Below, one piece after another: positions 654-16,340 of a stretch of 16,749 nt of DNA (its first letter is position 1; each line of letters starts with the position of its first letter). The notes under the pieces were generated by a model that was given only the letters and a program-made list of their open reading frames with translations, was not told the DNA's origin and made no database searches. A program made the position numbers and the translations under genes. Origin of the DNA: Candidatus Caldarchaeum sp. (GTDB lineage Archaea; Thermoproteota; Nitrososphaeria_A; Caldarchaeales; Caldarchaeaceae); the NCBI GenBank assembly GCA_038844785.1, contig JAWBRA010000031.1:1-16749 (forward strand), given 5' to 3'.

Positions 654-1058
654 TTATAACAGGTTTTTCGGCTCTCTTCTAGGCGTTTTCAACCCGTCCA
701 AGTGTTTGTCGAAGGAGACTATTGACTCCGCATTACTCGACAGCGCTGCTGAGTATTGTATTGCATTGTCCATGTCCAGCCCTTGTGTCAAAGCGATTTC
801 GACCGCTGTAAGCTCATCAGCAAGCGATGTGCGATGTATTTTGAGTCCTTTATAGGCGGTCAGGCTTGTCAGAAACGTCTTCAACGCGTCAAGCCTCTTA
901 AAACCATCCATCAAAACAATTATGGAGTGGATCGTGAAGTCGGTTACCAACGCCTCTATTTTTCCATCCCTTACAAGCCTGAGCAGCTGTTTACATTCTT
1001 CGCTTCCTCCCCTGCCCAGCAGTACTTCAAGAAATATGTTAGTGTCGATTAGATTCAT
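654..1058 (-). CDS. vapC: PIN-domain VapC toxin (possible active-site D->N)
   Basis: 134 aa; N-terminal LIDTNIFLE, LDMDNAIQY and IVSFD motifs; overlaps the upstream antitoxin by 20 nt. Confidence 0.9.
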   Translation of the reverse strand: MNLIDTNIFLEVLLGRGGSEECKQLLRLVRDGKIEALVTDFTIHSIIVLMDGFKRLDALKTFLTSLTAYKGLKIHRTSLADELTAVEIALTQGLDMDNAIQYSAALSSNAESIVSFDKHLDGLKTPRREPKNLL

Positions 1059-2656: not shown

Positions 2657-3103
2657 TTAGTCGAATGTTGTTATCTCGGTTATGGACCCGCCCTTCTCTA
2701 TGATTTCTGTATCGACTGTTAATAACTTGCATCCGATTCTTTTGGCTAGGTACATGTATGCTGCATCATATATCGTTAGCTTCGTTGACTCGGCTATTCT
2801 TAGTATCTCGCTTAGATCGTCCCAGTCGATGTTATCTACGATTAGGCCGATGGCGCCCATGGCTTGAAGAGCTTTTTCACCATCCTCCAAGCTCATTTTC
2901 CCAGCCCTTATCGCCTTATTTATAACGGAGGCTAGCTCGTACAGGATTAATGATGGGCCATGTGCCTCGACCCGTCTATAAGCTATATCTTCGGCCAGGG
3001 CTCTCGCATTTTTCTCCCATTTTTCTCCTGGGATAATCCATTTGGCCGCGACACTCGCATCTACGACGATCTTCAGCTTCTCTCTCTGTCCTCCCTTATC
3101 CAT
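2657..3103 (-). CDS. vapC: PIN-domain VapC toxin
   Basis: IVVDASVAAKW, LILYEL, TIYDAAY and LLTVD: all four acidic PIN residues present. Overlaps the antitoxin; exact start uncertain. Confidence 0.92.
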   Translation of the reverse strand: MDKGGQREKLKIVVDASVAAKWIIPGEKWEKNARALAEDIAYRRVEAHGPSLILYELASVINKAIRAGKMSLEDGEKALQAMGAIGLIVDNIDWDDLSEILRIAESTKLTIYDAAYMYLAKRIGCKLLTVDTEIIEKGGSITEITTFD

Positions 3104-3365: not shown

Positions 3366-3941
3366 GGTACTGTCAACTTTTACTTTTCGGATAGGCCTAT
3401 GGCTTGAGATGTTCTCATCTGGTTATGCGTGTCAGAGTCCTCGTGGGAAGGCTTACGCTTCTCTTTTATTCTTGGCTGGCCTTAGGCTTAGGGATGTGTC
3501 TGAGAGGTATGGCTTCACAGATGCTTCTGGGGATGGTGTTAGGGGGTGGGTTCGTAGGCTGGGGAGAGCCTTCAACCCTATACGTAAGGCTGGTCGCGGT
3601 GGATGAGGCTGTCGAGAAGAGGCTTGGCGAAAGGGTCTATCTATGGTCAGCGGTAGACGTATACGCCTCTAAAGGCAGGCCCATTCTTAATGCCCTGGCG
3701 TTGCTGAGGATGCATGTGAGGGCATAGTCGTGGATAGGGGTCCATGGCATCCACTGGCATAGAATACTTCCACGAGACCTCTGGGAATAGGAACAAGACA
3801 GGACCAGAAGACTCCACAACAACACAAACTCCAAGACAGTAAAGAGTATAGAGGAGATAGCAGCAGCAATAGCCCTAATACATAACCTACTCCTCAGAAC
3901 CCAAACAAGAGAAGGAGGCGTAATACCTAGCTGACAGTACC
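3366..3941 (+). mobile_element. Internally deleted IS6-family element with both terminal inverted repeats (576 bp)
   Basis: Left end GGTACTGTCAACT (3366-3378); right end AGCTGACAGTACC (3929-3941, reverse complement GGTACTGTCAGCT), 12/13 match. No target-site duplication (GAAACGTT vs ATTAAAAT). Confidence 0.85.
3398..3934 (+). pseudogene. tnp: Frameshifted IS6-family DDE transposase
   Basis: Pieces in different frames: HTH 'LFLAGLRLRDVSERYG...VRGWVRRL', 'LVAVDEA...VYLWSAVDV', 'IVVDRGPW', 'GIEYFHETSGNRNK' and 'RTRRLHNNTNSKTVKSIEEIAAAIALIHNLL...GGVIPS*'. The TGA (3932-3934) lies inside the TIR. The catalytic Glu segment appears deleted; start position approximate. Confidence 0.85.
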
Positions 3942-4060: not shown

Positions 4061-4083
4061 AAGGAAAAGGGTAGCTTTAAAAA
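4061..4083 (+). promoter_or_regulatory. BRE + TATA box for the aldehyde dehydrogenase-DUF1185 unit (probably leaderless)
   Basis: Purine-rich AAGGAAAAGG followed by TTTAAAAA (4076-4083), about 22 nt before ATG 4105; no SD sequence. Confidence 0.6.
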
Positions 4084-4104: not shown

Positions 4105-5547
4105 ATGAACGTTCTGCAAAACTTCATCGGCAACGAATTTGTCGCCTCAAAGTCTGTTGAGACGATTCCAGTGTATAATCCTGCTTTCGACTCGGTAATT
4201 TCAAAAGTACCCATAAGCATGGAGGATGAGGTGGACAGCGCTGTGGAGGCAGGTGTCAGGGCTTTTGAAAAATTCCGCAAAACAACACCGTCGGAAAGAG
4301 TTGAATATTTGCTGAAGATCAGGACTTTGATCGAACGGGATACAGATCTGATTGCACGTGTTCTCGTCGACAACCACGGCAGGACATACTCAGAAGCCGT
4401 AGGCGAAGTTAGACGAAGTCTAGAAAACGTGGAGGCTGCCGCTGCTCTGGCTTACACACTGGCGAAAGGCGAAAACATGACCAACGTTTCGCCTGATATA
4501 GATCAAGAACTTATCCGAGAGCCTCTAGGCTGTTTCGCCATCATCACGCCTTTCAACATCCCGCTACACGCATGGTCATCATACGTGCCTTACGCAATTG
4601 CTTTAGGTGCTACGGTGGTTCTGAAACCGAGCGAGGTAACGCCGATGGTGGTCAACGAGATAGCTAGGATTGTGAAGGAGGCAGGCGTTCCGCCCGGTGT
4701 TATGAATGTTGTTCACGGCGACGGCCGTGTAGCTGAGAAGCTAGTGCAACACCCAGACATTCAAGGGGTTGGGTTCATAGGGTCTACGAGGACAGGAAAA
4801 CTACTGTATGAAGCCGCCGCCAAGATGGGGAAACGTGCTTCGATCAACGCGGGGGCGAAGAACCACCTCGTCGTACTGCCTGACGCCAATATGGAGAAAA
4901 CGGCCGAAGCCGTTGTTTCGTCGTTCTTCGGAATGTCGGGGCAGAGATGCTTAGCCGGCTCCAACCTTGTTGTCGTCAAAAACGGGGAGAAGATCGTTGA
5001 GCTGGTCAAGTCAAGGTCTTGGCTCCGCCTAGGCTACGGCATGGACAAGGAAACCGAAATGGGCCCCATGGCTTCGAAAACAGGTTTGGAAAGAGTTATG
5101 AAATTCATTGAAAGCAGTGAAACGGTTGGGAAGCTTCTGGTGGACGGTAGGTTGAACAAGCCCGTCAAACCGTTGAAAGGCTATTTCGTCGGGCCCACGG
5201 TTTTCGAAAACGTTTTGCCGAACAGCACGTTGGCGAAGGAGGAGATTTTCGGCCCCGTAGCCTCAATAATTTATGCAGAAAACCTTGACGAGGCAATAGA
5301 TTTGATAAATAAAAACACGCCTTACGGCAACGCCGCAGCGATCTTCACATCAAACCCACGGAAGGCCCGTGAATTTGTTCTGAATGTTAACGTCGGTAAC
5401 GTCGGCGTCAACATAGGTGTACCACAGCCCATGGCTTATTTCCCGCTCGGCGGGAGAAGAATGTCTTTCTTCGGAGTAGCTCATAGCAGGGTTGATACCT
5501 TAAGATTCTTTACCGACCATAAGATCGTGACAACGAGGTGGTGGTGA
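4105..5547 (+). CDS. CoA-acylating (methyl)malonate-semialdehyde dehydrogenase family aldehyde dehydrogenase (ALDH6/MmsA-like)
   Basis: 480 aa. ITPFNIP, LKPSE, GFIGST, 'NAGAKNH' (lacks the ELGG glutamate, typical of CoA-acylating MMSDH), catalytic 'GQRCLAG', EEIFGPV, YGNAAAIFT, 'VGVNIGVPQPMAYFPLGG..SFFG'. Confidence 0.92.
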   Translation: MNVLQNFIGNEFVASKSVETIPVYNPAFDSVISKVPISMEDEVDSAVEAGVRAFEKFRKTTPSERVEYLLKIRTLIERDTDLIARVLVDNHGRTYSEAVGEVRRSLENVEAAAALAYTLAKGENMTNVSPDIDQELIREPLGCFAIITPFNIPLHAWSSYVPYAIALGATVVLKPSEVTPMVVNEIARIVKEAGVPPGVMNVVHGDGRVAEKLVQHPDIQGVGFIGSTRTGKLLYEAAAKMGKRASINAGAKNHLVVLPDANMEKTAEAVVSSFFGMSGQRCLAGSNLVVVKNGEKIVELVKSRSWLRLGYGMDKETEMGPMASKTGLERVMKFIESSETVGKLLVDGRLNKPVKPLKGYFVGPTVFENVLPNSTLAKEEIFGPVASIIYAENLDEAIDLINKNTPYGNAAAIFTSNPRKAREFVLNVNVGNVGVNIGVPQPMAYFPLGGRRMSFFGVAHSRVDTLRFFTDHKIVTTRWW

Positions 5548-6155
5548 AGTTGGAGGCGGCGCCTGGAGTTGTTATCCGTAAAGTCGTGGTCTTCGCCGAC
5601 GAAACGCTTATTGAAAACGGTAGACGTCTTGACAAACCTGTCAGGAAAAGCGTCGCAGCCGCCGTAATCAAGAATCCATACGCTGGAAGATATGTTGAAG
5701 ATCTTCAACTGTTGATTGACGCAGGAGATTTTCTCGGTGGTTTCCTAGGCAGGAAAGCTCGTGAAACACTCGGCATCCCGCCTGCAGCTGTTGAAAGCTA
5801 TGGAAAAGCAGCCATAGTAGGCGTAGCCGGCGAGCTTGAACACGGCCATGCAATTCTTCATCCAAAGTTCGGCAGAGGATTGCGTGAAGAATGCGGTGGC
5901 CAAGATGTATGCAAAGCCATAATTCCCTCGGCTGCGAAAGTCGGCGGGCCTGGAACACCGATAGACGTCCCGCTCCACTACAAGCGGGCGGCGTTTGTAA
6001 GAAGCCATTACGACGCGGTAGAAATAAGGGTTTCCGACGCCCCAATGGCAGATGAGATCGTGGTCATAGCGGCGGTGACCGATTCTGGAAGACCTTTGCC
6101 GAGAATCGGCGGCTTGAAGAAAGAGGAGGTCAGGGGGGAAGATGGGCTACGTTAA
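5538..6155 (+). CDS. DUF1185 / AA_synth ('amino acid synthesis') family protein
   Basis: 'IRK..V..DE...E.G', 'AAAVIKNPYAGRYVEDL', 'ESYGKAAIVG..GELEHGHA..HP', 'AIIPS..KVG..G..IDVPLHYK...FVRSHYD', 'DAP.ADEIVV.......GRP..RIGG'. Start overlaps the ALDH stop (GTG at 5538, 5541 or 5544). Confidence 0.9.
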   Translation: MVVKLEAAPGVVIRKVVVFADETLIENGRRLDKPVRKSVAAAVIKNPYAGRYVEDLQLLIDAGDFLGGFLGRKARETLGIPPAAVESYGKAAIVGVAGELEHGHAILHPKFGRGLREECGGQDVCKAIIPSAAKVGGPGTPIDVPLHYKRAAFVRSHYDAVEIRVSDAPMADEIVVIAAVTDSGRPLPRIGGLKKEEVRGEDGLR

Positions 6156-7111
6156 AATAACCATTTGACCAGTCTTCTTTTTACGAAATCGACTATTCCG
6201 TTTCGGAAAAACGCAAGAAGGAACAGAAGTGTCAAACCATAAAGGATCTGCGTTAGAGGTCCGAGAAATTTCAAGGTCTCGTTTACGATAGAGATTATGG
6301 CTGAGCCTATGTAAGGACCGAGTAGGGTGGTTCTTCCGCCGAGGATGACGATAAGCTGGACAGGAATATCGATTGATGAAAAAGCAAAATATGAGGGCGC
6401 GATGAGCTGGGAAAACAGCCCGTAAAGAGCGCCTGCCAACCCAAGAAGCGCTGATGAAAACAGGGCTGTTAGACTTTTTACCCTAGAAACGTTTATGCCG
6501 ACGAGTTCGGCGCTGTTTTCATCATCTATGATACAACGGTAAGCGTATCCTGTTTTTGTGTGGAAAAGCAGGTAGTAGGAAGCCATGGTAACTGTCAGCA
6601 CTAAGGCCGCGGCAAGATAGTAGAAACGGAGGTTGTATGGTAGCGCGTCAAGAGGGCCGAGGCTTATCCCACGTATTCTAAAACCTGTCTCACCGCCGGT
6701 TATGCCTGAAAGACCTATGACAAGGTTGTTGAAGACAAGCGTAATGGCTAGAGTGAATATTCCTGTGAAGATAACGACAAGCCTGCGGCGGATAGATAAG
6801 ACGCTGACAACCCATCCGACGAAGGCAACCGCCAGCATGGAAACCAGCATGGCTTCAACAGGCCCCATCAAACCTTCTCTGAGAGATATTCCCGTAATAT
6901 ACGCACCCATCCCTATGAAAGCTCCTATACACAGGAAAAGCTGCCGCGTAAACCCGAAAAGAAAGTTAAACCCATAGGCGAAAACCGTGAAGAAAACCAT
7001 CTGCACCAATATGAAAATGACGTAAGGTGTGTTGATGAATAGAAGCGGTAACACTGTGTAAATGAGTATTAGCACTATGACAGCATTAAGCCTTGTTCTT
7101 TCTCTCACCAT
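6152..7111 (-). CDS. livM: Branched-chain amino acid-type ABC transporter permease (LivM-like)
   Basis: Hydrophobic; 'ITGGETG', 'TGYAYRCIIDDENSAELVGIN', 'ILGGRTTLLGPYIG'. Confidence 0.9.
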   Translation of the reverse strand: MVRERTRLNAVIVLILIYTVLPLLFINTPYVIFILVQMVFFTVFAYGFNFLFGFTRQLFLCIGAFIGMGAYITGISLREGLMGPVEAMLVSMLAVAFVGWVVSVLSIRRRLVVIFTGIFTLAITLVFNNLVIGLSGITGGETGFRIRGISLGPLDALPYNLRFYYLAAALVLTVTMASYYLLFHTKTGYAYRCIIDDENSAELVGINVSRVKSLTALFSSALLGLAGALYGLFSQLIAPSYFAFSSIDIPVQLIVILGGRTTLLGPYIGSAIISIVNETLKFLGPLTQILYGLTLLFLLAFFRNGIVDFVKRRLVKWLF

Positions 7112-7977
7112 TTCTCACCCACGATGCCATAGGGACGAAACAGTATGATAGCCATGATAAGAATTAGAAGAGCTACGTAGGCGAGGTAAGTACCTATGAA
7201 GAGGACGAGAAAAGTATAGGCTATTCCTATGACGAGGCCGGCTATTATTGTTCCATACACGCTGCGAATCCCGCCCACTACGCAGACAAGTAATCCGAGG
7301 ATTGTGAACTCTATTCCGCTTTCCGGCGCAACCGTGGCTATGATGCTACGGATTATCCCAGCAAGGCCGACGAGAAGTGCTCCCAGCATGAAAACCAGCA
7401 GACGATACTTCTTGACGCCTACTCCAACCATCAACGCACCTGTTTCGTTCTGGGTGAGGGAACGTATCGCCATACCGCTCCATGTTTTTCTGAGGAAAAA
7501 GTAAACTGCAACTAGGATGGTTGCTGAACCTATGCCGGTTACCAGCTGAGCTAGCCGAACCGTCAACCCCATGAAGTTTATGGATGTTATGGGCAGGTTG
7601 ATTGTAAGGAATGCGAGGGGGAAAGTTGTTATGATAGAGCTGTGGAGGAAAATTGAGAACGCGAGCGTCATGTAAAGGCCTAGAAGAACTCTTTCCTCAC
7701 CTTCAAGCTTGTAAACAGGCTGCAGAACGATTTTGTCGAGAAAGGCAGCTGCAGCAACTGCAACAGCTAGACCAGCTACTAAAGCTAAAGGCAGTGGAAA
7801 ACCCAACGTCTGCATCAAGACAGCCGAGGTTACTGTGCATACAACCAACAACTCGCCGTGAGCAAGGTTAAGCACACCAGCCAGACCATATATCAAAGTC
7901 AAGCCAGAAGCGATAAGCGAAAGAATCAAGCCGAAAACCACTCCATCTAGAAGAAACAACAGCAAACCAGAATCCAT
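7105..7977 (-). CDS. livH: Branched-chain amino acid-type ABC transporter permease (LivH-like)
   Basis: 'LIASGLTLIYG..GVLNLAHGE', 'GMAIRS..QN..GALMVGV', 'VVGGI.S..GT', 'FRPYGI.GE'. Confidence 0.92.
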   Translation of the reverse strand: MDSGLLLFLLDGVVFGLILSLIASGLTLIYGLAGVLNLAHGELLVVCTVTSAVLMQTLGFPLPLALVAGLAVAVAAAAFLDKIVLQPVYKLEGEERVLLGLYMTLAFSIFLHSSIITTFPLAFLTINLPITSINFMGLTVRLAQLVTGIGSATILVAVYFFLRKTWSGMAIRSLTQNETGALMVGVGVKKYRLLVFMLGALLVGLAGIIRSIIATVAPESGIEFTILGLLVCVVGGIRSVYGTIIAGLVIGIAYTFLVLFIGTYLAYVALLILIMAIILFRPYGIVGEKW

Positions 7978-7979
7978 CG

Positions 7980-8699
7980 TTACATCCCCAAATATTTTCT
8001 TACGAAAGCCTGTTTCGACAACCCTTCACGTATATCGCCGTCAAACACTATACGGCCGTTCGTAATTATGTACCCTCTGTCGCAGAGTTCAGCCGCTTGA
8101 GCAGTCCGTTGCTCGACTAGAAGTATAGACAGATCTTTCTTGTTTTCCATTATTTTCCGCAAGCCTGTAAAAATGCTTTTGACAAGTAGCGGAGCCAGCC
8201 CTGTGGAAGGCTCGTCGAGAAGCAGAAGCTTTGCATCTGTCATCAAAGCTCTTCCGATGGCCAGCATTTGCTGTTCGCCACCGCTCATCGTCCCAGCTTT
8301 TTGAAACTCTCTTTCCCTGAGTTTGGGGAAGATGCTGTAGACAAGTTCGAGGTTTTCCAAGGCTTTCTTCCTCGCCCTTGCGTTGAAGGCCCCTAGCAGC
8401 AGGTTTTCCTTTACAGTCATCTGTGGGAAAAGTTCTTTTTCAGCGAGTGCGAGGGCCACGCCCTCTCCGACAACTTTCTCAGGAGGCATGCCGTCGATTC
8501 GTTTCCCATCGAAGACTATTGAACCTTTTTTAGGTTTTACCAAGCCCGCGATAGTTTTAAGAAGGGTTGTTTTGCCAGCACCGTTGGGACCTAAAACGGC
8601 GACCACTTCTCCACGGTCTATGTTTATTGAAACATCCCAGAGAATTTGAATGTCGCCGTATCCAGCTGCAAGGTTATCCACTTTTAGAAGGCTGGACAA
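7980..8699 (-). CDS. livF: ABC transporter ATP-binding subunit (LivF-like)
   Basis: Walker A GPNGAGKT, signature MSGGEQQMLAIGRAL, LLLLDEPSTGLAP, VEQ switch. Likely start is TTG 8699 (MSSLLKVDNL) with GGTGAG upstream; the ORF track starts at 8723. Confidence 0.93.
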   Translation of the reverse strand: MSSLLKVDNLAAGYGDIQILWDVSINIDRGEVVAVLGPNGAGKTTLLKTIAGLVKPKKGSIVFDGKRIDGMPPEKVVGEGVALALAEKELFPQMTVKENLLLGAFNARARKKALENLELVYSIFPKLREREFQKAGTMSGGEQQMLAIGRALMTDAKLLLLDEPSTGLAPLLVKSIFTGLRKIMENKKDLSILLVEQRTAQAAELCDRGYIITNGRIVFDGDIREGLSKQAFVRKYLGM

Positions 8700-9438
8700 T
8701 TCTCTCACCCAAGTATGCTTCAATTACTTCTTCGTCGGCGACTATTTCTTCAGGCTTTCCCTCAGCTATCTTCACGCCTTGGTTTAGGACCGATACCTTG
8801 TCGGCTAGTGATGATACTGCGCTGATCACGTGCTCAACCCAAACGATTGTAAGGTTGTAGGTTTTTCTCAGTTCTTTGAAGAGCTCTATGGCGTCTTCTA
8901 TTTCGGCGGTGTTGAGGCCGCTCATGTACTCATCCACCATCAAAACCTTTGGTTTAGATGCTAGGGCTCTTGCGAGCTCCACTTTTTTCCTCTCCTGAAG
9001 GTTCAAAACAGCTGCTTTAAGGTTAGCTTTACTTGACAATCCAAACCTGTCCAAGAGTGTTGAAACATGTTTTTCCAGCTCTTCCATCGACATACGGCCG
9101 CTAAACAGCCCACCAGCCAAGACATTTTCCCAAACCGTCAAATCCTTAAACGGTCTAGGGATCTGAAGAGTTCTTCCAATACCGAGCCTAAAAACCTCGT
9201 AGGCAGGTTTTCCAGTTATGTCAACACCGTCGAGCAGAATCTTGCCTGATGAAGGCTTGTAGACGCCGTTTATCACGTTAAACAGCGTTGTTTTACCTGC
9301 TCCGTTAGGGCCGATGACGGCTCTGATCTCACCATCCTCAACCTCGATGTTAACGTTTCTCAGAGCCGGTAATCCGCCGAAAAACTTCGTCACATCAATG
9401 CACTTTAATATTATCTTTCCCAAACCATTCTCAACCAT
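8674..9438 (-). CDS. livG: ABC transporter ATP-binding subunit (LivG-like)
   Basis: 'KFFGGL.AL', GPNGAGKTT, 'GIGRTLQ..RPF', 'KKVELARALA..PKVLMVDE..SGL', VEH, C-terminal 'VIEAYLG'. Confidence 0.93.
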   Translation of the reverse strand: MVENGLGKIILKCIDVTKFFGGLPALRNVNIEVEDGEIRAVIGPNGAGKTTLFNVINGVYKPSSGKILLDGVDITGKPAYEVFRLGIGRTLQIPRPFKDLTVWENVLAGGLFSGRMSMEELEKHVSTLLDRFGLSSKANLKAAVLNLQERKKVELARALASKPKVLMVDEYMSGLNTAEIEDAIELFKELRKTYNLTIVWVEHVISAVSSLADKVSVLNQGVKIAEGKPEEIVADEEVIEAYLGERIVQPSKSG

Positions 9439-9449
9439 CTTCTCGTCGG

Positions 9450-9468
9450 AAAAAAGAAAGATAAAAAG
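9450..9468 (-). terminator. Oligo-T tract downstream of the binding-protein gene (candidate partial intrinsic terminator)
   Basis: Minus strand after the TAA reads CATCTTTTTATCTTTCTTTTTTCC in the 33-nt livK-livG gap; archaeal intrinsic termination uses oligo-U. Confidence 0.5.
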
Positions 9469-9471
9469 ATG

Positions 9472-10686
9472 TTATTTAGGTGGAACGTATGGTTCAACCG
9501 GCGGCGATGTGTAAAGGGTTTCAAGCACCCAGTTTGCTCCCGGGTTAACTTGACCCGGGTCTCCTCTTTTAATCACAGCAAGCCGCATCGCCGGCTTCTT
9601 GATCTCGCCCCACTCGGTGTAGGACAACGGCCATGCGAATATGGGATGGTTGAATTCATGTGTGCGGATATGGTTGGCAACAACAGCGGGGTCTGTTGAC
9701 CTTGTTTTTTCGACGGCGTCCGCGATCAACATCACGGTGACGTATCCAGATACCGCGTTATGGTCGAAGTATTTACCGTATTTCTGGTAAAATTTCACCG
9801 CTAGGTCACGGTATTGAGGCGTTTCTATGTTCACGCATGTGGTTGTAACAAGCTTGTTGAGGCCTATATCTCCGACCCCTCTAAGCATGAGCTCAGGCGG
9901 CTGGACTGACGCTATGTAATAGGCTGATTGGAAACCGAGTTCTATGGCTTGCTTGGTGATGACGGGGAACCCAGGCGGATGGCCGGTCAGTATCATGATC
10001 TCTGGCTGGAGGGATTGAAGCTTCCGAAGAACAGTTGTGAAGTCGGTTTCACCCAGAGGTGCTTCCTCAATCTGGAACTGCACTCCCGGAATTTCCCTCA
10101 GCCTTTTCTCCAAAACCTCCTTGATGGCAAAACCCCATTCATAGCTGGCTATAACCACGCCGACTTTTTTATAGCCCTTGTCGCGGACAAAGTTGGCGAG
10201 AAGCTCGCCGTTAGTAGGAGCGGGCGGCAAACAGGTTCTAAACGTGTAGCGGGAATCCTTGGTTAAGATTGTGTGTGAGCCGGCTGCTATGAGGAAAAGC
10301 GGAACCTTCGCCTGCTCCGCTTCAGCCGTCAAAACGGCGCCTATTCCGCTCGAAATAGTCCCCACCACAGCGGTTACATGGTCAATCTCCGCCATCCTTT
10401 TAAATATCGCCACAGCCTCCTTCGCGTCGTTTTTTTCGTCAGCCTCGATGAGAACGAGCTTCGCCCCCAGAATGCCTCCTTTGGCGTTTATTTCGTCGAC
10501 AGCAAACCGCATACCATTAAGTGTGTAGTCACCGTAGATAGCGAAAGGGCCTGTCAAAGGAACAAGGGCCCCTATCTTCACTTCAGATACTTCAAGTCTT
10601 TGCTGTGAAAGAAACAGGAAGACACCAGATGCCGCGACAGCTACTATGACTACGGAAATAATAGCAACAAATACTGATTTTTTCAT
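9472..10686 (-). CDS. ABC transporter substrate-binding protein (LivK/LivJ-like, type 1 PBP), N-terminally anchored
   Basis: N-terminal hydrophobic helix; 'VKIGALVPLTGPFAIYG', 'AVDEINAKGGILG', 'AVVGTISS', 'YTFRT', 'TDFTT.L.KL'. Confidence 0.92.
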   Translation of the reverse strand: MKKSVFVAIISVVIVAVAASGVFLFLSQQRLEVSEVKIGALVPLTGPFAIYGDYTLNGMRFAVDEINAKGGILGAKLVLIEADEKNDAKEAVAIFKRMAEIDHVTAVVGTISSGIGAVLTAEAEQAKVPLFLIAAGSHTILTKDSRYTFRTCLPPAPTNGELLANFVRDKGYKKVGVVIASYEWGFAIKEVLEKRLREIPGVQFQIEEAPLGETDFTTVLRKLQSLQPEIMILTGHPPGFPVITKQAIELGFQSAYYIASVQPPELMLRGVGDIGLNKLVTTTCVNIETPQYRDLAVKFYQKYGKYFDHNAVSGYVTVMLIADAVEKTRSTDPAVVANHIRTHEFNHPIFAWPLSYTEWGEIKKPAMRLAVIKRGDPGQVNPGANWVLETLYTSPPVEPYVPPK

Positions 10687-10710: not shown

Positions 10711-10724
10711 TTTTAAATTTTTGC
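10711..10724 (-). promoter_or_regulatory. Candidate internal TATA/BRE promoter for the transporter genes
   Basis: Minus strand GCAAAAATTTAAAA overlaps the LLM stop codon, about 25 nt upstream of the SBP ATG (10686); no SD sequence. Confidence 0.45.
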
Positions 10725-11705
10725 GTTGTAAATACGTGAATAAAGATCTTGCGTGATTCTAAGAAGCTGTGTCTTTTCAAACGTCACTGGGTTAAGAACT
10801 ATCCAGTCAACACCCTCAAGAGACATGATGCGTTTCTTAATTTTTTCCGCAACCTCGTCAACGGTGCCGTAGAGGTAATAGTTTTTCCAATACTCAAGAT
10901 TCATACCTGAGTATAGAGAGAAGCGTTTTACGGCTTCGTTGTCATCCTCCCCAGGACTACGGATGTAGACAAAGTTTGAATATATCTTTGTTATTCTATA
11001 GGGGTCGCGCCCCAGCTCCGCTGCATATTTCTTCAGTTTCTCCCAATCCTGCGCCGCCATCTCTGGCGTTACGCTTGAATGCGGAATCCATCCATCCGCA
11101 AACTTGGCTATGCGTAAAAGAACCTTGTCAACTCCCTTTGCAGCAGTGCCGTAAAGAATTTCGTGCGGCTGGCTTCCGCCGCCAATCCAGACGGGAGGAT
11201 GTGGTTTCTGGACTGGTTTAGGCTCAAGAACAAGATCTTTCACGTTAAAATATCTGCCCTCAAAAGTTGTTCTATATTCTGTCCAAAGCTTTTTGAGAAG
11301 AGCAAGGTATTCATCCATTATCGCGCCCCGTTTTTCCAGCGGGGTGTTGAGCAGTTTGAATTCGTCGACGTTCCAGCCCACACCCGCTCCAAGAACAAAT
11401 CTCCCGCCAGAATAAACGTCCAGAGACGCTGTCTGTTTTGCGACGAGATAGGGATTCCTAAGAGGTAGCACCATCACCATAGGGCCTACAACGGCGTTCT
11501 TTGTCGCTGCCGCGACGAAAGAGAGGGCAATTAACGGGTCGTGCCAGCTCGTTGAATACGCGGGCCGCGATGTAAGCAGATGGTCGATGACGAAGAATCC
11601 CTGAACACCGAGTTGTTCGGCCTCAGCGACGTAGTTTCTTAAGACCTCTCCCGATGAAAAATCACCAGGCCGTGTATATGTTGGAAGACGGAGACCGAGC
11701 TTCAT
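10713..11705 (-). CDS. Luciferase-like (LLM) oxidoreductase, probably F420-dependent (Rv2161c-like)
   Basis: 330 aa TIM-barrel motifs: 'FVIDHL', 'DPLIALSFVAAAT', 'LPLRNP..VAKQ.ASLD..SGGR..LGAGVGW...EF', 'PKPVQKPHPPVWIGG', 'ADGW'. 1-nt gap after the enamidase stop. Confidence 0.88.
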   Translation of the reverse strand: MKLGLRLPTYTRPGDFSSGEVLRNYVAEAEQLGVQGFFVIDHLLTSRPAYSTSWHDPLIALSFVAAATKNAVVGPMVMVLPLRNPYLVAKQTASLDVYSGGRFVLGAGVGWNVDEFKLLNTPLEKRGAIMDEYLALLKKLWTEYRTTFEGRYFNVKDLVLEPKPVQKPHPPVWIGGGSQPHEILYGTAAKGVDKVLLRIAKFADGWIPHSSVTPEMAAQDWEKLKKYAAELGRDPYRITKIYSNFVYIRSPGEDDNEAVKRFSLYSGMNLEYWKNYYLYGTVDEVAEKIKKRIMSLEGVDWIVLNPVTFEKTQLLRITQDLYSRIYNAKI

Positions 11706-11706
11706 T

Positions 11707-12891
11707 CTAATGACCTCCCTCGGGAATCCGAGCCGCTCCTTCGGTCTTTATCTGCCTCGTTGGAGGAGGTGTCATTCGACTGCGGCCTACACGTGGAATA
11801 CCGTCAACCATCACCATCGCGATGCCAGGAATGTCGCCGACTGAAAACGCTTCGAGAGCATCCTTGCCGACCGAGCCGTAGGGCGCATCAACGACTAAAA
11901 GGTCTGCAGGTCTCTCAGGTTCGAGAATGCCTTCATTCAGTCCAAAGGCTTTGGCTGTGTTGCCTGTCGCGGCGCAAACGACTTTCTCAGCCTCGACGCT
12001 GGTGTTGGATGCGATAAAGGAAATAGTCCTTATTATTCCTAAGGGAATAACACCGGTTCCTGAGGGGGCATCGTTTCCAATTATCAATCTGTTCAGCTGG
12101 TTACGTGACTGGAGTATTCTGACTGTTTCTATCATGGATTTGAAGTTACCACATTGGACAACTTCGATGGCTGAATCTGTGTCTTCGATTATTTTCCGGA
12201 TGTCTGTTAGGGATGGTGATGTGGGTCCTCCATTAATGTGTGACACGACGTTTGGCTTTACCTTCATGACTACTTCGGCGTTGATTATTGTACTGCCTGG
12301 TATTGAAGCTCCGCCTGTGTGGATTACTACTTTCATACCGTGTTTCTGGGCTATTCTCACTAAAGCAGCGGCTTCATCTGGGTCTTGAACGCTTCCAAGA
12401 CCAACTTCACCAACCAGCCAGACACCGGCCTTCACCACCTCTTCAAAATCAGCTTCAACCAACCCCTTCTCAAGTAACAAAGCACCGGCGTGAATCTTCG
12501 CCCCAAGAGGCCGGAGGTTTTTAAAGGTTTTGTGGGCTAAGATTGCAAGGGCCTTCGCTGCTTCCTTATCACCACGTGGCCTACCCGGCAGATGCACTTC
12601 ACCCGCTGAGATGAATGTCGTCACACCTCCGTTGACCGAAGATTCTATAAAGCCGAGAGTGTTTTGCCTTGGTGTGAAATCTCCGAAAACCGGGTGAACA
12701 TGGGAATCAAACAGTCCGGGAATCACCGTCATGTTGTTGACGTCAAAGACCCCGTCGGCTTGGCGTGAAATGTTCCAACCGATTTCCTCTATGACTCCAT
12801 TGCTGATGTATATGCTGTCGCCGCTGACTACAGGCTTGTCGATGTTTCCCGAAACTATTTTTCCAATGTTTTTAATCAGAATGGTTTTCAT
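11707..12891 (-). CDS. ena: Enamidase (amidohydrolase superfamily), homolog of Eubacterium barkeri Ena
   Basis: Colinear with Ena as recalled: 'IKNIGKIVSG', 'PGL.D.HVH...GD..PRQ', 'GGVTT.ISAG..H.PGRP', 'GVW.VGEVGLG', 'HTGG.SIPGS', 'VVSHINGGPT', 'E.VQCGN', 'GNDAPSGTG.IPLG', 'GDIPGI', 'SR.TPP'. The HxH, E, H, H, D binuclear metal ligands are all present. Confidence 0.88.
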   Translation of the reverse strand: MKTILIKNIGKIVSGNIDKPVVSGDSIYISNGVIEEIGWNISRQADGVFDVNNMTVIPGLFDSHVHPVFGDFTPRQNTLGFIESSVNGGVTTFISAGEVHLPGRPRGDKEAAKALAILAHKTFKNLRPLGAKIHAGALLLEKGLVEADFEEVVKAGVWLVGEVGLGSVQDPDEAAALVRIAQKHGMKVVIHTGGASIPGSTIINAEVVMKVKPNVVSHINGGPTSPSLTDIRKIIEDTDSAIEVVQCGNFKSMIETVRILQSRNQLNRLIIGNDAPSGTGVIPLGIIRTISFIASNTSVEAEKVVCAATGNTAKAFGLNEGILEPERPADLLVVDAPYGSVGKDALEAFSVGDIPGIAMVMVDGIPRVGRSRMTPPPTRQIKTEGAARIPEGGH

Positions 12892-12894
12892 TCG

Positions 12895-15234
12895 TCATCC
12901 ATTTGTTCTCAACTTATTTTTATTGTTTTTCATGCTTTCCCAAAGTTGTTGAGATGAGATGTGCGACCGGTTTATTCGGATTTTTAAAGCATCCTCAACA
13001 GCATTGGCTATTGCAGCTGCAACAGGTATCAACGGACCTTCACCCATACCTTTAGACCCAAGTTCAGAAAACAAAGACGGAGTCTCCAGATGGTCGACTA
13101 AAATCTCCGGGGTCTCAACAGATGTGGGCAAAAGATAATCGACGAAAGACGATGTCAAAATCTGTCCATTCACATCGTAAACAATTCTTTCATAAAGGGT
13201 TGCGCCAATCCCCTGCACTATCCCGCCCACTATTTGGCCGTCGACGATTTGTTTGTTCAAGATTTTGCCGCAGTCATGGACTGCGACGTACCGTAGTATT
13301 GTCGGTTTGAATGTTTCGGGATCAATTTGCACTATTGCGATATGCGTGGAGATACCGTAAGTGGCTGACATGTTGATTTCGCCTGCAACACCTGTGTTGA
13401 ATGTTGGGAAGTCAAAGAAATGTTCAGCCTGAAGTGAGGTGTGGTTACGTGTTTTGACGTTGTCGCGGTATGCTTTTGCGGCAAGCTGTTCTAACGAGAT
13501 GGAGGAGTCCGACCCTTTTACATAAATTGTTCCGCCGCGGATTTCCAGATCGTTTGCAGAGGTTTCGAGAAGTTCGGAAGCTATTGATAGGATACTGCGT
13601 TTTAGTTTCTCGGCGGCTTTTTTCACAGCAGCCGTCGTCATCACGCTGAACCTACTTGCCCAAGTTCCTCCGTAGGGGCTTGGGTAAACTACGTCGGAAT
13701 CGCCGAAAACAATTTTAACATGCTCAGGCTTTACGTTCAGGGTTTCGCAGACTATTTGTGTGAGGACGGTTTCATGGCCTTGACCCTGTGGAATCGATGC
13801 CGCGTAAACAGTTATGGTTCCCGATTCTTCGAGGCGAACTATCGCTCCTTCCCCTGAGCCAGACGTTTCAAGATGGGGGAAGAGAAGTTTGTTCCGTGCA
13901 AGGTTCGTTACCGCAGGTTCTACAACACACGCTATTCCTATCCCCACGTTTTGTTTACCCGCGAATTTTTCGGGCTCGGCAAGTTTCCACGCTCTTTCTA
14001 ACACTGCTTTATAGTCACCGCCATCATACAAACTGCCGAAAACTGTTCGGTACGGCTGTTGACTTTTGTCGACCATGTTTCGGAAACGGATTTCAAGAGG
14101 AGATAATCCGACCTGCTTCGCCACAATATCCATCATTCTTTCCAAGACAAAGTATGCCTGCTGACATCCATAGCCACGGACAGGGCCCGTAGGACATTTG
14201 TTAGTAAATACCACTTTCAACTCGACGTCAACATTACGAATGTCGTAGCAGCCGAGATAAGTCATCAACGAACGCACCACCCCTCCTGGGTCTGGAAGAC
14301 GAGCGTAGGCCCCCACATCCTCAATGAACCTCGTCCTGTACGCAGTAATTTTCCCATCACGTTTAACCGCCATTTCAGCATGAGCTATTCGGTTAGAGTT
14401 ATGAGCCATGGCTGCAATATGTTCTGAACGTGTTTCGAACCATTTCACGGGTAGTCCAGTATGCATGGCTGCGAAAGCTACAAGAAAGACAATCGGATAG
14501 AGCATTATTTTGACGCCGAAACCTCCACCGATGTCTCGTTGAATCAGCCTGATTCGCTCCGGCTTAATTCCGAGAGAGCGTGCGACAATACTACGAAACA
14601 GAAGAGGAGTTTGCTGATTATCGTATATGTTCAGCTTCCCATCCTTCTCCGGTTTTACTACTACCCCACATGTTTCAATTGGACATGCTGCATACCGTTC
14701 GAAAATGAATTTTTCAGAAACAATTTCATCAGCTTCGTCAAACATCTTTTCAACATCGCCAAACTTGAAACGTTGGCTTACGGCGATGTTTGTCCCAAGG
14801 TTTTCATGTATAAATGTGGACGAGCTAAGCGATTCTTCTGGGTCTACAACAGGGGGGAGAGGCTCGTAATCGACGTATACTTTTTCGGCAGCGTCCAAGG
14901 CATCTTCCAACGATTTAGCGAGCACCATGGCTACGGGCTCGCCGTAGAACCTAACTTTATCAACCGCTATCCCATAGTAAGCAACATCTTTGATGAGTGT
15001 ATAGAGAGGCTTTGTCTTAAAAGCTATAGTTTTTCCGTCAAAAACAGCGTCGGCGGTTTTTAAGGCTTCGGAAAAATCGGTTGAGAGAATTCGTGCGTGA
15101 GGGTAGGGACTTCTTACAAAAACCAAGTGAAGCATCTTTGGGAAAGAAATGTCGTCGACATATACCGCCTGACCGCGTAGAAATCTTGGATCCTCGACTC
15201 TTCTGCTTAATTTCAACCTTTTTAAGGTTTCCAA
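12895..15234 (-). CDS. Xanthine dehydrogenase/CoxL-family molybdopterin-binding large subunit (heteroaromatic hydroxylase; HmfA-like motifs)
   Basis: 779 aa, TTG start. 'RRVEDPRFL.G...YVDD', 'VRSPYPHARI', 'IGGGFGVK', active-site loop 'GPVRGYG', 'QGQGHET', 'ASR', 'DCG..LN...VDGQI.GG..QG.G', and 'KGMGEG' with the catalytic Glu. Confidence 0.93.
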   Translation of the reverse strand: METLKRLKLSRRVEDPRFLRGQAVYVDDISFPKMLHLVFVRSPYPHARILSTDFSEALKTADAVFDGKTIAFKTKPLYTLIKDVAYYGIAVDKVRFYGEPVAMVLAKSLEDALDAAEKVYVDYEPLPPVVDPEESLSSSTFIHENLGTNIAVSQRFKFGDVEKMFDEADEIVSEKFIFERYAACPIETCGVVVKPEKDGKLNIYDNQQTPLLFRSIVARSLGIKPERIRLIQRDIGGGFGVKIMLYPIVFLVAFAAMHTGLPVKWFETRSEHIAAMAHNSNRIAHAEMAVKRDGKITAYRTRFIEDVGAYARLPDPGGVVRSLMTYLGCYDIRNVDVELKVVFTNKCPTGPVRGYGCQQAYFVLERMMDIVAKQVGLSPLEIRFRNMVDKSQQPYRTVFGSLYDGGDYKAVLERAWKLAEPEKFAGKQNVGIGIACVVEPAVTNLARNKLLFPHLETSGSGEGAIVRLEESGTITVYAASIPQGQGHETVLTQIVCETLNVKPEHVKIVFGDSDVVYPSPYGGTWASRFSVMTTAAVKKAAEKLKRSILSIASELLETSANDLEIRGGTIYVKGSDSSISLEQLAAKAYRDNVKTRNHTSLQAEHFFDFPTFNTGVAGEINMSATYGISTHIAIVQIDPETFKPTILRYVAVHDCGKILNKQIVDGQIVGGIVQGIGATLYERIVYDVNGQILTSSFVDYLLPTSVETPEILVDHLETPSLFSELGSKGMGEGPLIPVAAAIANAVEDALKIRINRSHISSQQLWESMKNNKNKLRTNG

Positions 15235-15983: not shown

Positions 15984-16340
15984 TTATCCGTTTTCCAACC
16001 TTATTTCCAAGCCAAGGCCATCCAATTTTTTGAACTCCTTGTCTGAAGTAGCCAGCGTCAGGTTTTTTGCTTTAGCGGATGCTGCTATAAGCAGGTCGGC
16101 TTCTGGAACTTTCAAACCCCGGCCCCTTAAAGCATCGTATATGTCGCAGTACTCCATTATGACCTCGTTGTCCAACGGTATGATTTCGTATACCTTTTCT
16201 AGACTTGTTTTCACTTGATTACGTTTCTCCGCCGCTACTCCTCTCAAAACCTCTACCAACGTAATGACGCTGATACATCCTTCTATAAGCTTGCCTTTCT
16301 GCAGCGATTTTATCAGAATGCTCGTATCTAACAACATCAT
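15984..16340 (-). CDS. vapC: PIN-domain VapC toxin
   Basis: MLLDTSILI, SVITLVEV, PEADLLIAASA, LATSDKEF; ATGA overlap with the antitoxin. Confidence 0.93.
   Translation of the reverse strand: MMLLDTSILIKSLQKGKLIEGCISVITLVEVLRGVAAEKRNQVKTSLEKVYEIIPLDNEVIMEYCDIYDALRGRGLKVPEADLLIAASAKAKNLTLATSDKEFKKLDGLGLEIRLENG

What the first reader, a model, noticed from the sequence alone, without database searches (positions are those of the whole stretch)
4105..5547. MmsA-like ALDH could be a 2-formylglutarate dehydrogenase (decarboxylating, glutaryl-CoA forming)
Seen: CoA-acylating MMSDH signatures, including the arginines in 'GEVRR' and 'GQRC' associated with carboxylate binding, but a divergent segment 'PFNIPLHAWSSYVPY' instead of the usual PFNFPAM(I/V)PxWMFP. 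Chemistry: 2-formylglutarate is a 2-substituted malonate semialdehyde, so the MMSDH reaction would give glutaryl-CoA + CO2. No 2-hydroxymethylglutarate dehydrogenase (the E. barkeri next step) is in the window.
Basis: partly seen in the sequence, partly recalled or inferred. Interest (0 to 1): 0.75.

Follow-up and report, generated by a model that had tools for sequence, protein, structure and literature searches.

The report
Nicotinate-cluster aldehyde dehydrogenase in archaea
This gene encodes a distinct offshoot of methylmalonate-semialdehyde dehydrogenase that, in hot-spring archaea, always accompanies the ring-opening enzyme of vitamin B3 (nicotinate) breakdown and probably turns that enzyme's product into glutaryl-CoA, a step for which I found no assigned enzyme.

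Summary
ORF 4105-5547 (+) is a 480-aa ALDH whose best family is CoA-acylating MMSDH, just under NCBI's cut-off (430.6 vs 448.5 bits). It keeps both carboxylate-binding arginines, the catalytic Cys and the missing Glu base, but has a rewritten substrate-channel segment.

The window is a whole contig of a Candidatus Caldarchaeum MAG. It carries a conserved module: Mo-hydroxylase large subunit, enamidase homologue (2vun, E 2e-124), F420-type LLM, Liv-type ABC importer, DUF1185 and this ALDH.

The 33 motif-bearing proteins form one clade (SH-aLRT 100) inside the MMSDH family, apart from the housekeeping paralogues of the same lineage. In 76 Caldarchaeales genomes, enamidase and the clade ALDH occur in the same 16.

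Best reading: a dedicated CoA-acylating enzyme feeding the enamidase product into glutaryl-CoA, most likely from 2-formylglutarate with on-enzyme decarboxylation (about 0.45). The main rival is glutarate semialdehyde after a separate decarboxylation, perhaps by DUF1185.

Earlier notes of this scan proposed the same idea on bacterial DNA (e1-4683905 and others). I found no paper describing it. Untested biochemically.

The parts
4076..4083 (+). TTTAAAAA, TATA-box-like element 22 nt upstream of the ALDH start codon
   Evidence: Read directly. A TTTAAAA(A/T) element stands at a similar distance before the ALDH start in 6 of the 11 loci printed (window, L006, L012, L013, L034; TATATAT in L008/L009). 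Promoter function is inferred.
4105..5547 (+). MMSDH-derived, CoA-acylating-type aldehyde dehydrogenase (the finding), 480 aa
4402..4416 (+). GEVRR; R104 is the equivalent of the MSDH carboxylate-binding Arg-124
   Evidence: Invariant in 72 of 72 MMSDH-type sequences. It aligns to the R of GEVGRG in 1t90. Its role is recalled from the literature.
4549..4593 (+). Rewritten substrate-channel segment PFNIPLHAWSSYVPY (N151 is the oxyanion-hole Asn; I152, H155, W157, S158 and S159 are clade-specific)
4939..4950 (+). GQRC: R281 (Arg-301 equivalent) and catalytic C282
   Evidence: Invariant in 72 of 72; aligned to 1t90 and 8xxq.
5538..6155 (+). DUF1185 / 'amino acid synthesis' family protein (PF06684). 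GTG start overlaps the ALDH 3' end by 10 nt.
   Evidence: Pfam E 3.4e-70; PDB 2qtp E 6.3e-65; overlap read. Adjacent to the ALDH in every Caldarchaeales locus that covers the place.
6152..10686 (-). Liv-type ABC importer: two permeases (6152-7111, 7105-7977), two ATPases (7980-8723, 8674-9438) and a binding protein (9472-10686)
   Evidence: The proteobacterial nicotinate cluster carries a 'putative nicotinate ABC transporter' (PMC3511419, passages).
10713..11705 (-). Luciferase-like, F420-type oxidoreductase (TIGR03619, 201 bits against a cut-off of 166.9). Candidate 6-hydroxynicotinate reductase.
   Evidence: CofE is present in the genome. No Hnr homologue was found with one bacterial query. 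The role is inferred.
11707..12891 (-). Enamidase homologue, 394 aa
   Evidence: PDB 2vun (E. barkeri enamidase) E 2.2e-124, residues 3-382 aligned to 3-384.
12895..15234 (-). Molybdenum hydroxylase large subunit (candidate nicotinate hydroxylase), with no small or FAD subunit beside it
   Evidence: Pfam MoCoBD_1/2 and Ald_Xan_dh_C. A small-plus-FAD subunit pair with no large subunit beside it lies at C15:20881-22249.

Best explanation
The gene encodes a dedicated paralogue of CoA-acylating methylmalonate-semialdehyde dehydrogenase. It works in an archaeal version of the reductive (THON/enamidase) nicotinate pathway.

Proposed route: nicotinate is imported by the Liv-type ABC system. It is hydroxylated by the Mo enzyme and reduced by the F420-type LLM in place of Hnr. 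Enamidase then opens the ring to 2-formylglutarate plus ammonia.

The ALDH then binds 2-formylglutarate as a 2-substituted malonate semialdehyde. R104 and R281 hold the C1 carboxylate. A widened channel lacks F152, W159 and F448, and has gained H155 and R462; it takes the carboxyethyl arm. The enzyme oxidises the aldehyde on C282 with NAD(P)+, loses the C1 carboxylate as CO2 from the thioacyl-enzyme, and hands the glutaryl group to CoA.

Shown here: family, conserved catalytic set, clade identity, gene linkage and co-occurrence with enamidase. Inferred: substrate, on-enzyme decarboxylation, product, and the roles of the LLM, the Mo enzyme and DUF1185.
For: (1) Catalytic make-up of MMSDH. R104, N151, R281 and C282 are invariant in 72 of 72 sequences. 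There is no Glu at the general-base position: N248 in 33 of 33 clade members (alignments).

(2) Eleven positions separate the clade from other MMSDHs almost completely. Examples: I152 against F, H155 against M/L, S159 against W, L/I448 against F, R462 against Q, each 33/33 against 0/39. The deepest branch, at 44-45% identity, keeps them. Three aromatic side chains are lost and His and Arg are gained while both arginines stay. That fits a bulkier substrate with a second acidic group (inference).

(3) The 33 motif-bearing rows are one clade with SH-aLRT 100 and branch length 0.32, nested in the MMSDH family. The housekeeping paralogues of relatives (L045-L047, with a C. subterraneum MMSDH) lie in another clade.

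(4) The enamidase homologue is strong (2vun, E 2.2e-124).

(5) Linkage. The full module is syntenic in 7 of the 9 genome loci (the other 2 are cut short) and in 7 of the 15 metagenome loci, while the flanking genes differ.

(6) Co-occurrence. In 76 Caldarchaeales genomes, enamidase (at least 71% identity) and the clade ALDH (at least 66%) are found in the same 16, with 0 discordant. This includes the single positive among 19 genomes of family f2. Canonical MMSDH (40-49%) is in 17 genomes, 8 with the module and 9 without.

(7) Distant clade members (57-60% identity) lie beside Mo hydroxylase genes and DUF1185. One lies beside a PncA-like nicotinamidase (168.5 bits against a cut-off of 174). Others lie beside CoA-transferases whose best model is succinate-glutarate CoA-transferase.

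(8) Chemistry. 2-formylglutarate is a 2-substituted 3-oxopropanoate, so the MMSDH reaction gives glutaryl-CoA plus CO2 (established mechanism, recalled).
Against: No experiment bears on this.

No glutaryl-CoA dehydrogenase was recognised. None of the six acyl-CoA dehydrogenases reaches the NF045552 cut-off (best 258.5 against 470). The two I checked resemble short-chain enzymes most.

DUF1185 is translationally coupled to the ALDH and accompanies enamidase in bacteria (7 of 10 plasmid loci). Two of those loci carry an SSADH-like hydrolytic ALDH instead. That fits the Azorhizobium order of decarboxylation first and oxidation second, and would make glutarate semialdehyde the substrate.

None of the 10 plasmid enamidase loci carries an annotated MMSDH. 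Five whole plasmid records have nothing above 35% identity to this protein.

No enamidase is seen beside the four distant clade members, though their contigs are short at 3.5-8.9 kb.

A glutarate-type CoA-transferase beside the ALDH in L038 and L040 hints at free glutarate there.

A beta-formyl acid should be labile at hot-spring temperatures (inference).

This genome has no canonical MMSDH, so the enzyme might also serve ordinary substrates. However, the near-identical genome G011 has one.
Confidence: 0.45

Rival explanations
1. The ALDH is a CoA-acylating glutarate-semialdehyde dehydrogenase. 2-formylglutarate is first decarboxylated, either spontaneously at high temperature or by the co-translated DUF1185 protein. 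The ALDH then oxidises glutarate semialdehyde to glutaryl-CoA without any decarboxylation. It would have been recruited from MMSDH because that is the CoA-dependent branch of the ALDH superfamily.
For: The ALDH and DUF1185 overlap by 10 nt. They stay together even where the module is split, as in G020 (L049 against L050).

DUF1185 lies beside enamidase homologues in 7 of 10 bacterial plasmid loci. In Mesorhizobium and Mariluticola an SSADH-like ALDH is nearby.

The Azorhizobium pathway places decarboxylation before oxidation (Kitts et al. 1992, recalled; not readable).

The widened channel also suits a linear C5 substrate.
Against: R104 and R281 hold the carboxylate that is beta to the aldehyde in MSDH (recalled). 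They are invariant in 33 of 33 clade members down to 44% identity, which is unexpected if that carboxylate is already gone.

The clade gained further cationic or polar residues (H155, R462) instead of swapping one anchor for another.

The function of DUF1185 is unknown. Its fold resembles chorismate mutase (PMC2954203, passages), which suggests an isomerase or deaminase-type helper as readily as a decarboxylase.
Confidence: 0.25
2. It is an ordinary malonate/methylmalonate-semialdehyde dehydrogenase (valine, beta-alanine or propionate metabolism) that merely lies next to the nicotinate-type genes.
For: The best family is TIGR01722 and the full catalytic set is kept. It is the only MMSDH-type gene found in this assembly; the next ALDH is 34% identical.
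Against: It scores below the curated cut-off. It forms a separate clade with SH-aLRT 100. It is strictly co-distributed with enamidase, 16 against 16 of 76 genomes. Canonical MMSDH is distributed independently and coexists with it in 8 of the 16. Five channel positions are replaced in all members. The module keeps the gene while the flanks change.
Confidence: 0.1
3. The module degrades a different N-heterocycle, such as another pyridine carboxylate or a pyridone. The enamidase homologue then yields a different 2-substituted malonate semialdehyde, and the ALDH makes the corresponding acyl-CoA instead of glutaryl-CoA.
For: The Mo large subunit matches no nicotinate-specific model; its best models are glyceraldehyde and CO dehydrogenases, both below cut-off. 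Enamidase homologues also occur with FAD monooxygenases in place of Mo enzymes, as in Mariluticola and A. vitis. Six relatives carry a second enamidase paralogue at 41-42% identity.
Against: The enamidase match to the E. barkeri enzyme is very strong and full-length. The Liv-type importer and DUF1185 are the same accessories as in the proteobacterial nicotinate cluster. A PncA-like nicotinamidase follows a deep-branch clade ALDH.
Confidence: 0.12

Closest known systems
CoA-acylating methylmalonate-semialdehyde dehydrogenase (B. subtilis MSDH/IolA, PDB 1t90; human ALDH6A1, PDB 8xxq)
   Same: Same fold and length, aligned end to end (E about 1e-103). Same catalytic Cys, oxyanion Asn and both carboxylate-binding Arg, and no Glu general base. 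Expected to share the same chemistry: oxidation, beta-decarboxylation on the thioacyl-enzyme, and transfer to CoA.
   Different: Below the TIGR01722 cut-off. Forms a separate clade. The channel segment NFPxM(I/V)PxW is replaced by NIP(L/M)H(A/G)WSS. F448 becomes L/I and Q462 becomes R. It is linked to enamidase, not to valine or inositol genes.
Eubacterium barkeri nicotinate fermentation (Alhapel et al. 2006; recalled, not readable here)
   Same: Mo hydroxylase, ring reduction, and enamidase giving 2-formylglutarate. The enamidase homologue is very close.
   Different: There, 2-formylglutarate is reduced by Hgd and enters a B12-dependent branch. Here there is no Hgd in the module, an ALDH stands after enamidase, an F420-type LLM stands where Hnr would be, and only the large Mo subunit is present.
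Azorhizobium caulinodans / proteobacterial nicotinate cluster (Kitts et al. 1992, recalled; PMC3511419, passages)
   Same: The route goes through THON to a glutaryl unit. It has a Liv-type ABC importer and conserved proteins of unknown function (DUF1185) beside the first three enzymes.
   Different: The described route uses three separate steps: decarboxylation, oxidation to glutarate, then CoA transfer. The archaeal module has one MMSDH-type enzyme that could do all three. The bacterial plasmid loci inspected here carry no MMSDH-type ALDH.

Membership tests
CoA-acylating MMSDH (NCBIfam TIGR01722 / ALDH6) | Score at or above the curated family cut-off | tested here: not met
   430.6 bits against a cut-off of 448.5. 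It is still by far the best model; the next scores 308 bits. NCBI names close relatives only 'aldehyde dehydrogenase family protein'.
CoA-acylating MMSDH (NCBIfam TIGR01722 / ALDH6) | Catalytic Cys preceded by Arg (Arg-301/Cys-302), plus a second carboxylate-binding Arg (Arg-124) | tested here: met
   R281-C282 and R104 are invariant in 72 of 72 aligned sequences and align to 1t90 and 8xxq. The residue roles are recalled from the literature.
CoA-acylating MMSDH (NCBIfam TIGR01722 / ALDH6) | No glutamate general base at the ELGGK position (deacylation by CoA, not water); oxyanion-hole Asn present | tested here: met
   N248 in INAGAKN in 33 of 33 clade members; N151 invariant.
CoA-acylating MMSDH (NCBIfam TIGR01722 / ALDH6) | Canonical substrate-channel segment PFNFPxM(I/V)PxW and Phe at position 448 | tested here: not met
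   I152, H155, A156, W157, S158, S159 and L/I448 in the clade, against F, M/L, I/V, P, F, W and F in 39 other MMSDHs.
CoA-acylating MMSDH (NCBIfam TIGR01722 / ALDH6) | Phylogenetic placement within the family | tested here: met
   The clade is nested among archaeal and bacterial MMSDHs when rooted on a 34%-identical ALDH of the same genome (quick tree, SH-aLRT only).
CoA-acylating MMSDH (NCBIfam TIGR01722 / ALDH6) | NAD- and CoA-dependent oxidative decarboxylation of malonate or methylmalonate semialdehyde | not testable with these tools
   Needs an enzyme assay.
Reductive (THON) nicotinate catabolic cluster | Enamidase orthologue | tested here: met
   2vun E 2.2e-124, full length.
Reductive (THON) nicotinate catabolic cluster | Nicotinate dehydrogenase (Mo hydroxylase with FeS and FAD subunits) | tested here: inconclusive
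   Only the large subunit is in the module, and it matches no nicotinate-specific model. Small/FAD subunit pairs lie elsewhere in the genome.
Reductive (THON) nicotinate catabolic cluster | 6-hydroxynicotinate reductase (Hnr, Fe-S flavoprotein) | tested here: not met
   No match in the genome (95.5% complete) to a Comamonadaceae Hnr query (one query only). An F420-type LLM lies next to enamidase.
Reductive (THON) nicotinate catabolic cluster | Accessory genes of the proteobacterial form: Liv-type ABC importer and DUF1185 | tested here: met
Hydrolytic succinate/glutarate-semialdehyde dehydrogenase (TIGR01780 and relatives) | Family score above the cut-off and a Glu general base | tested here: not met
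   262.4 bits against a cut-off of 646.35; no Glu at the base position.

The most novel reading that the evidence does not exclude
The clade is a 2-formylglutarate dehydrogenase (decarboxylating, CoA-acylating). This activity has no assigned enzyme. It would collapse the three post-enamidase steps of the Azorhizobium-type route (decarboxylation, oxidation, CoA activation) into one energy-conserving step. It would be part of the first nicotinate catabolic pathway recognised in Archaea, with an F420-dependent LLM as the 6-hydroxynicotinate reductase and DUF1185 as a dedicated helper.
Probability: 0.4. Interest if true: 0.7.

Novelty: new variant of a known kind. Interest (0 to 1): 0.55.

Why it matters
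In the papers I could search, the genes for the steps after enamidase in the glutarate-type nicotinate route are not assigned. PMC3511419 lists only the first three enzymes, a transporter and two unknowns.

A rare, sharply defined MMSDH offshoot that tracks enamidase gives a directly testable candidate for that gap. It is also a clean case of substrate-channel remodelling on a fixed catalytic scaffold. It points to nicotinate or nicotinamide as a carbon and nitrogen source for thermophilic Caldarchaeales; a search for Caldarchaeum plus nicotinate returned no paper.

The clade is small. Only 5 of the 150 best representatives, from a library of 1.84 billion, carry its motifs. Characterising one enzyme would therefore annotate the whole group.

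Tried and rejected
(1) Expression. One RNA-library run (X13, kept as contigs) holds a 192-nt piece identical to 4134-4325 and a 196-nt piece identical to 10083-10278. Most of the ALDH has no cover, and DNA can be present in such libraries, so this is no evidence of transcription.

(2) Downstream enzyme. The six acyl-CoA dehydrogenases were scanned against NCBIfam and two of the six against PDB. None is recognisably glutaryl-CoA dehydrogenase. The genome's single family III CoA-transferase (C13) has uninformative neighbours.

(3) Bacterial ena-linked MMSDH. Of 25 plasmid hits I inspected 10, and searched 5 whole records with the ALDH. No MMSDH-type gene was found. I could therefore not test whether the bacterial cases noted earlier in this scan belong to the same clade.

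(4) A 401-genome sample of the phylum added no clade member beyond the 16 Caldarchaeales genomes. The hosts of the 57-60% members remain unknown.

(5) I looked for a shared operator upstream of the two transcription units by eye. Only TATA-like boxes were seen.

(6) Papers. Kitts 1992, Alhapel 2006 and Talfournier 2011 are not held. One search was swamped by 'marathon' matches. The last search for an ALDH6A1 structure paper found nothing useful.

(7) No structure prediction, docking or complex prediction was run. The tools return no coordinates, so they could not place the clade-specific residues in the pocket. Their channel location rests on recalled ALDH structural knowledge.
Full report
**What is there**

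The window is one whole contig (C31, 16,749 bp, 47.7% G+C) of a 1.74-Mb assembly that is 95% complete. Near-identical and related contigs are titled Candidatus Caldarchaeum sp. from hot springs.

ORF 4105-5547 (+) encodes a 480-aa aldehyde dehydrogenase. Its best family model is CoA-acylating methylmalonate-semialdehyde dehydrogenase, TIGR01722, at 430.6 bits. That is under the curated cut-off of 448.5, but far above the next model at 308 bits. The closest solved proteins are human ALDH6A1 and B. subtilis MSDH, at E about 1e-103 and aligned end to end.

**Surroundings**

The ALDH stop overlaps by 10 nt the GTG start of a DUF1185 / 'amino acid synthesis' protein (PF06684; PDB 2qtp, E 6e-65). 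An operon converges on this pair. It runs:
- Mo-hydroxylase large subunit
- enamidase homologue (PDB 2vun, E 2.2e-124 over the full length)
- luciferase-like F420-type oxidoreductase (TIGR03619, above its cut-off)
- five-gene Liv-type ABC importer

Three PIN/VapC genes and unassigned ORFs fill the remainder of the contig. PF03446 proteins exist only on other contigs.

**The module is a unit**

Nine related genome loci were fetched. Seven carry the whole set, and the other two are cut by contig ends. Of 15 metagenome loci found with clade-specific peptide patterns, 7 carry the whole set and 4 more carry the part that fits on the contig.

Gene order varies. The ABC genes are missing between the two halves in L013. 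ALDH and enamidase are divergent neighbours in L030. The flanks differ completely between loci: ribosomal proteins, a subtilase, another transporter. In one genus (G020) the module is split in two, and the ALDH stays with DUF1185.

**The ALDH is a separate clade**

In an alignment of 31 homologues, and then in a 73-row set, the motif-bearing proteins differ from all other MMSDHs at a block of positions. They keep R104, N151, R281, C282 and the non-Glu residue at the general-base position.

Full partitions, 33 of 33 against 0 of 39:
- R93 (others K)
- I152 (F)
- H155 (M/L)
- W157 (P/S)
- S158 (F/L/M)
- S159 (W)
- S246
- L/I448 (F)
- S461
- R462 (Q)

A maximum-likelihood tree was built by the quick search with LG+C20 and SH-aLRT support only. 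I left out three identical duplicates, proteins under 440 aa, two thirds of the hits beyond P0030, and three unrelated ALDHs. The tree puts the 33 rows on one branch with support 100 and length 0.32, nested inside the MMSDH family. The second, canonical MMSDH paralogues of related genomes fall in a different clade, together with a Caldiarchaeum subterraneum MMSDH.

A deeper branch at 44-45% identity keeps H155, W157, S158, S159, R93, R462 and both arginines.

A profile search of 1.84 billion representatives shows the clade is rare. Only 5 of the best 150 carry its motifs.

**Co-occurrence**

Among 76 genomes of the order, enamidase (at least 71% identity) is found in 16 and the clade ALDH (at least 66%) in the same 16. 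Neither occurs without the other.

In 12 of the 16 the two genes lie within 8 kb on one contig. In three they are on different contigs at assembly breaks or in a fragmented assembly. In one the split is real.

The set includes the only positive among 19 genomes of a second family. That genome's ALDH nests within the first family's sequences, so the whole module probably moved; a binning error would also explain it.

Canonical MMSDH (40-49% identity, E at most 1e-90) is in 17 genomes, 8 with the module and 9 without. The genomes are related, so these counts are descriptive and not a statistical test. This assembly itself lacks a canonical copy. The near-identical G011 has one, so the lack may be an assembly gap.

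**How it most likely works**

By the MSDH mechanism as I recall it (Talfournier et al. 2011; not readable here), Arg-124 and Arg-301 hold the substrate's carboxylate. The aldehyde is oxidised on Cys-302, the beta-carboxylate leaves from the thioacyl-enzyme, and CoA takes the acyl group. P0001 numbering plus 20 gives that numbering at both arginines and the cysteine.

The clade keeps this machinery. It replaces positions that correspond to 170, 173, 174, 177 and 459 in ALDH2 numbering. Those positions line the substrate channel in ALDHs; this is recalled and was not tested on coordinates. The replacements are smaller or polar residues, and a His and an Arg are added.

That is what one would expect for a 2-substituted malonate semialdehyde with a longer, acidic substituent. 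2-formylglutarate, the enamidase product, is exactly such a compound, and the product would be glutaryl-CoA plus CO2.

Distant clade members lie next to Mo hydroxylases, DUF1185, a PncA-like nicotinamidase, and CoA-transferases whose best model is succinate-glutarate CoA-transferase. The last two matches are below their cut-offs. This context is consistent with nicotinate or nicotinamide at the top of the route and a glutaryl unit at the bottom.

**What speaks against it, and the rivals**

The main rival is that decarboxylation comes first and the ALDH takes glutarate semialdehyde.
- For the rival: DUF1185 is coupled to the ALDH here. In bacteria it sits beside enamidase in 7 of the 10 plasmid loci I inspected, out of 25 hits. 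Two of those loci carry an SSADH-like hydrolytic ALDH, matching the order of steps reported for Azorhizobium (Kitts 1992, recalled).
- Against the rival: both arginines are strictly retained across the clade.

None of these 10 loci has an MMSDH-type ALDH, and five whole plasmid records have nothing above 35% identity. The MMSDH solution is therefore lineage-specific and not general.

I could not identify a glutaryl-CoA dehydrogenase. I also could not show enamidase beside the distant clade members, whose contigs are short.

An ordinary housekeeping role is unlikely given the clade, the channel changes and the co-distribution. A different heterocyclic substrate remains possible. Either way the product of both leading readings is glutaryl-CoA; they differ in where the CO2 leaves.

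**Comparison and novelty**

The protein works like an MMSDH and descends from that family. It fails two membership criteria: the curated score and the canonical channel segment. I therefore file it as a new variant.

The pathway resembles the E. barkeri and proteobacterial reductive nicotinate route. It differs in three ways:
- An F420-type LLM stands where Hnr would be. No Hnr was found with one query, and the F420 ligase CofE is present.
- The Mo large subunit is orphaned from its partners. Small/FAD subunit pairs lie elsewhere in the genome.
- This ALDH stands in place of Hgd.

In the searchable library I found no paper linking an MMSDH-type enzyme to 2-formylglutarate, or nicotinate catabolism to Caldarchaeales. 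Subscription papers and supplements were not visible.

Earlier notes of this scan made the same proposal for bacterial operons (e1-4683905, e1-2450110, e1-4328196, e1-4700626) and noted the LLM-for-Hnr swap (e1-4968530, e1-5086191). Those are unchecked AI notes on other DNA, and I could not compare their sequences with this clade.

**Verdict**

My confidence is about 0.8 that this is a dedicated enzyme of the enamidase pathway yielding a glutaryl thioester. It is about 0.45 for 2-formylglutarate as the direct substrate. Interest is 0.55.

Noticed in passing
window 5538-6155 (+); L014, L015, L016, L019, L051, L052, L054: DUF1185 ('amino acid synthesis family') lies beside or near enamidase homologues in 7 of 10 bacterial plasmid loci, and its end overlaps the enamidase start in A. 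vitis. Its name rests on Liv-type ABC neighbours (PMC2954203), which a nicotinate paper calls a putative nicotinate transporter (PMC3511419). It is probably a nicotinate-pathway helper of unknown chemistry, not an amino-acid synthesis protein.
   Followed up: partly
window 10713-11705 (-): An F420-type luciferase-like oxidoreductase sits directly after enamidase where 6-hydroxynicotinate reductase would be expected. No Hnr homologue was found in the genome with one bacterial query, and CofE is present. Earlier scan notes report the same swap in Chloroflexota and Rokubacteria.
   Followed up: partly
window 12895-15234 (-); G000 C15:20881-22249: The module carries only the large Mo-hydroxylase subunit. 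The genome has about ten large subunits. A small-plus-FAD subunit pair with no large subunit beside it lies on C15 and could serve in trans.
   Followed up: partly
G040 (= L011), contig C21: The whole module occurs in 1 of 19 genomes of a second Caldarchaeales family, and its ALDH nests within the first family's sequences. This suggests lateral transfer of the module, or a binning error.
   Followed up: partly
G007, G009, G013, G015, G016, G017: Six relatives carry a second enamidase paralogue, 41-42% identical, elsewhere in the genome. Its context was not examined.
   Followed up: no
L041 3969-4625 (+); L038 1951-3171 (-); L040 5036-6310 (+): Beside distant clade ALDHs lie a PncA-like nicotinamidase (168.5 bits against a cut-off of 174) and family III CoA-transferases whose best model is succinate-glutarate CoA-transferase (361-374 bits against a cut-off of 750).
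   Followed up: partly
window 654-1058 (-), 2657-3103 (-), 15984-16340 (-): Three PIN-domain (VapC-like) toxin genes flank the catabolic module. ORFs 2-457, 1341-2183 and 3404-3727 match no Pfam family.
   Followed up: no
L049 2261-8579 (+) (G020 contig C10): Where the module is split, the ALDH-DUF1185 pair follows genes for ETF beta, ETF alpha, a FixC-like flavoprotein, a methyltransferase and a 501-aa protein with no family.
   Followed up: no
G058 C33:301-1749: A canonical MMSDH paralogue in a relative is interrupted by one in-frame TAG.
   Followed up: no
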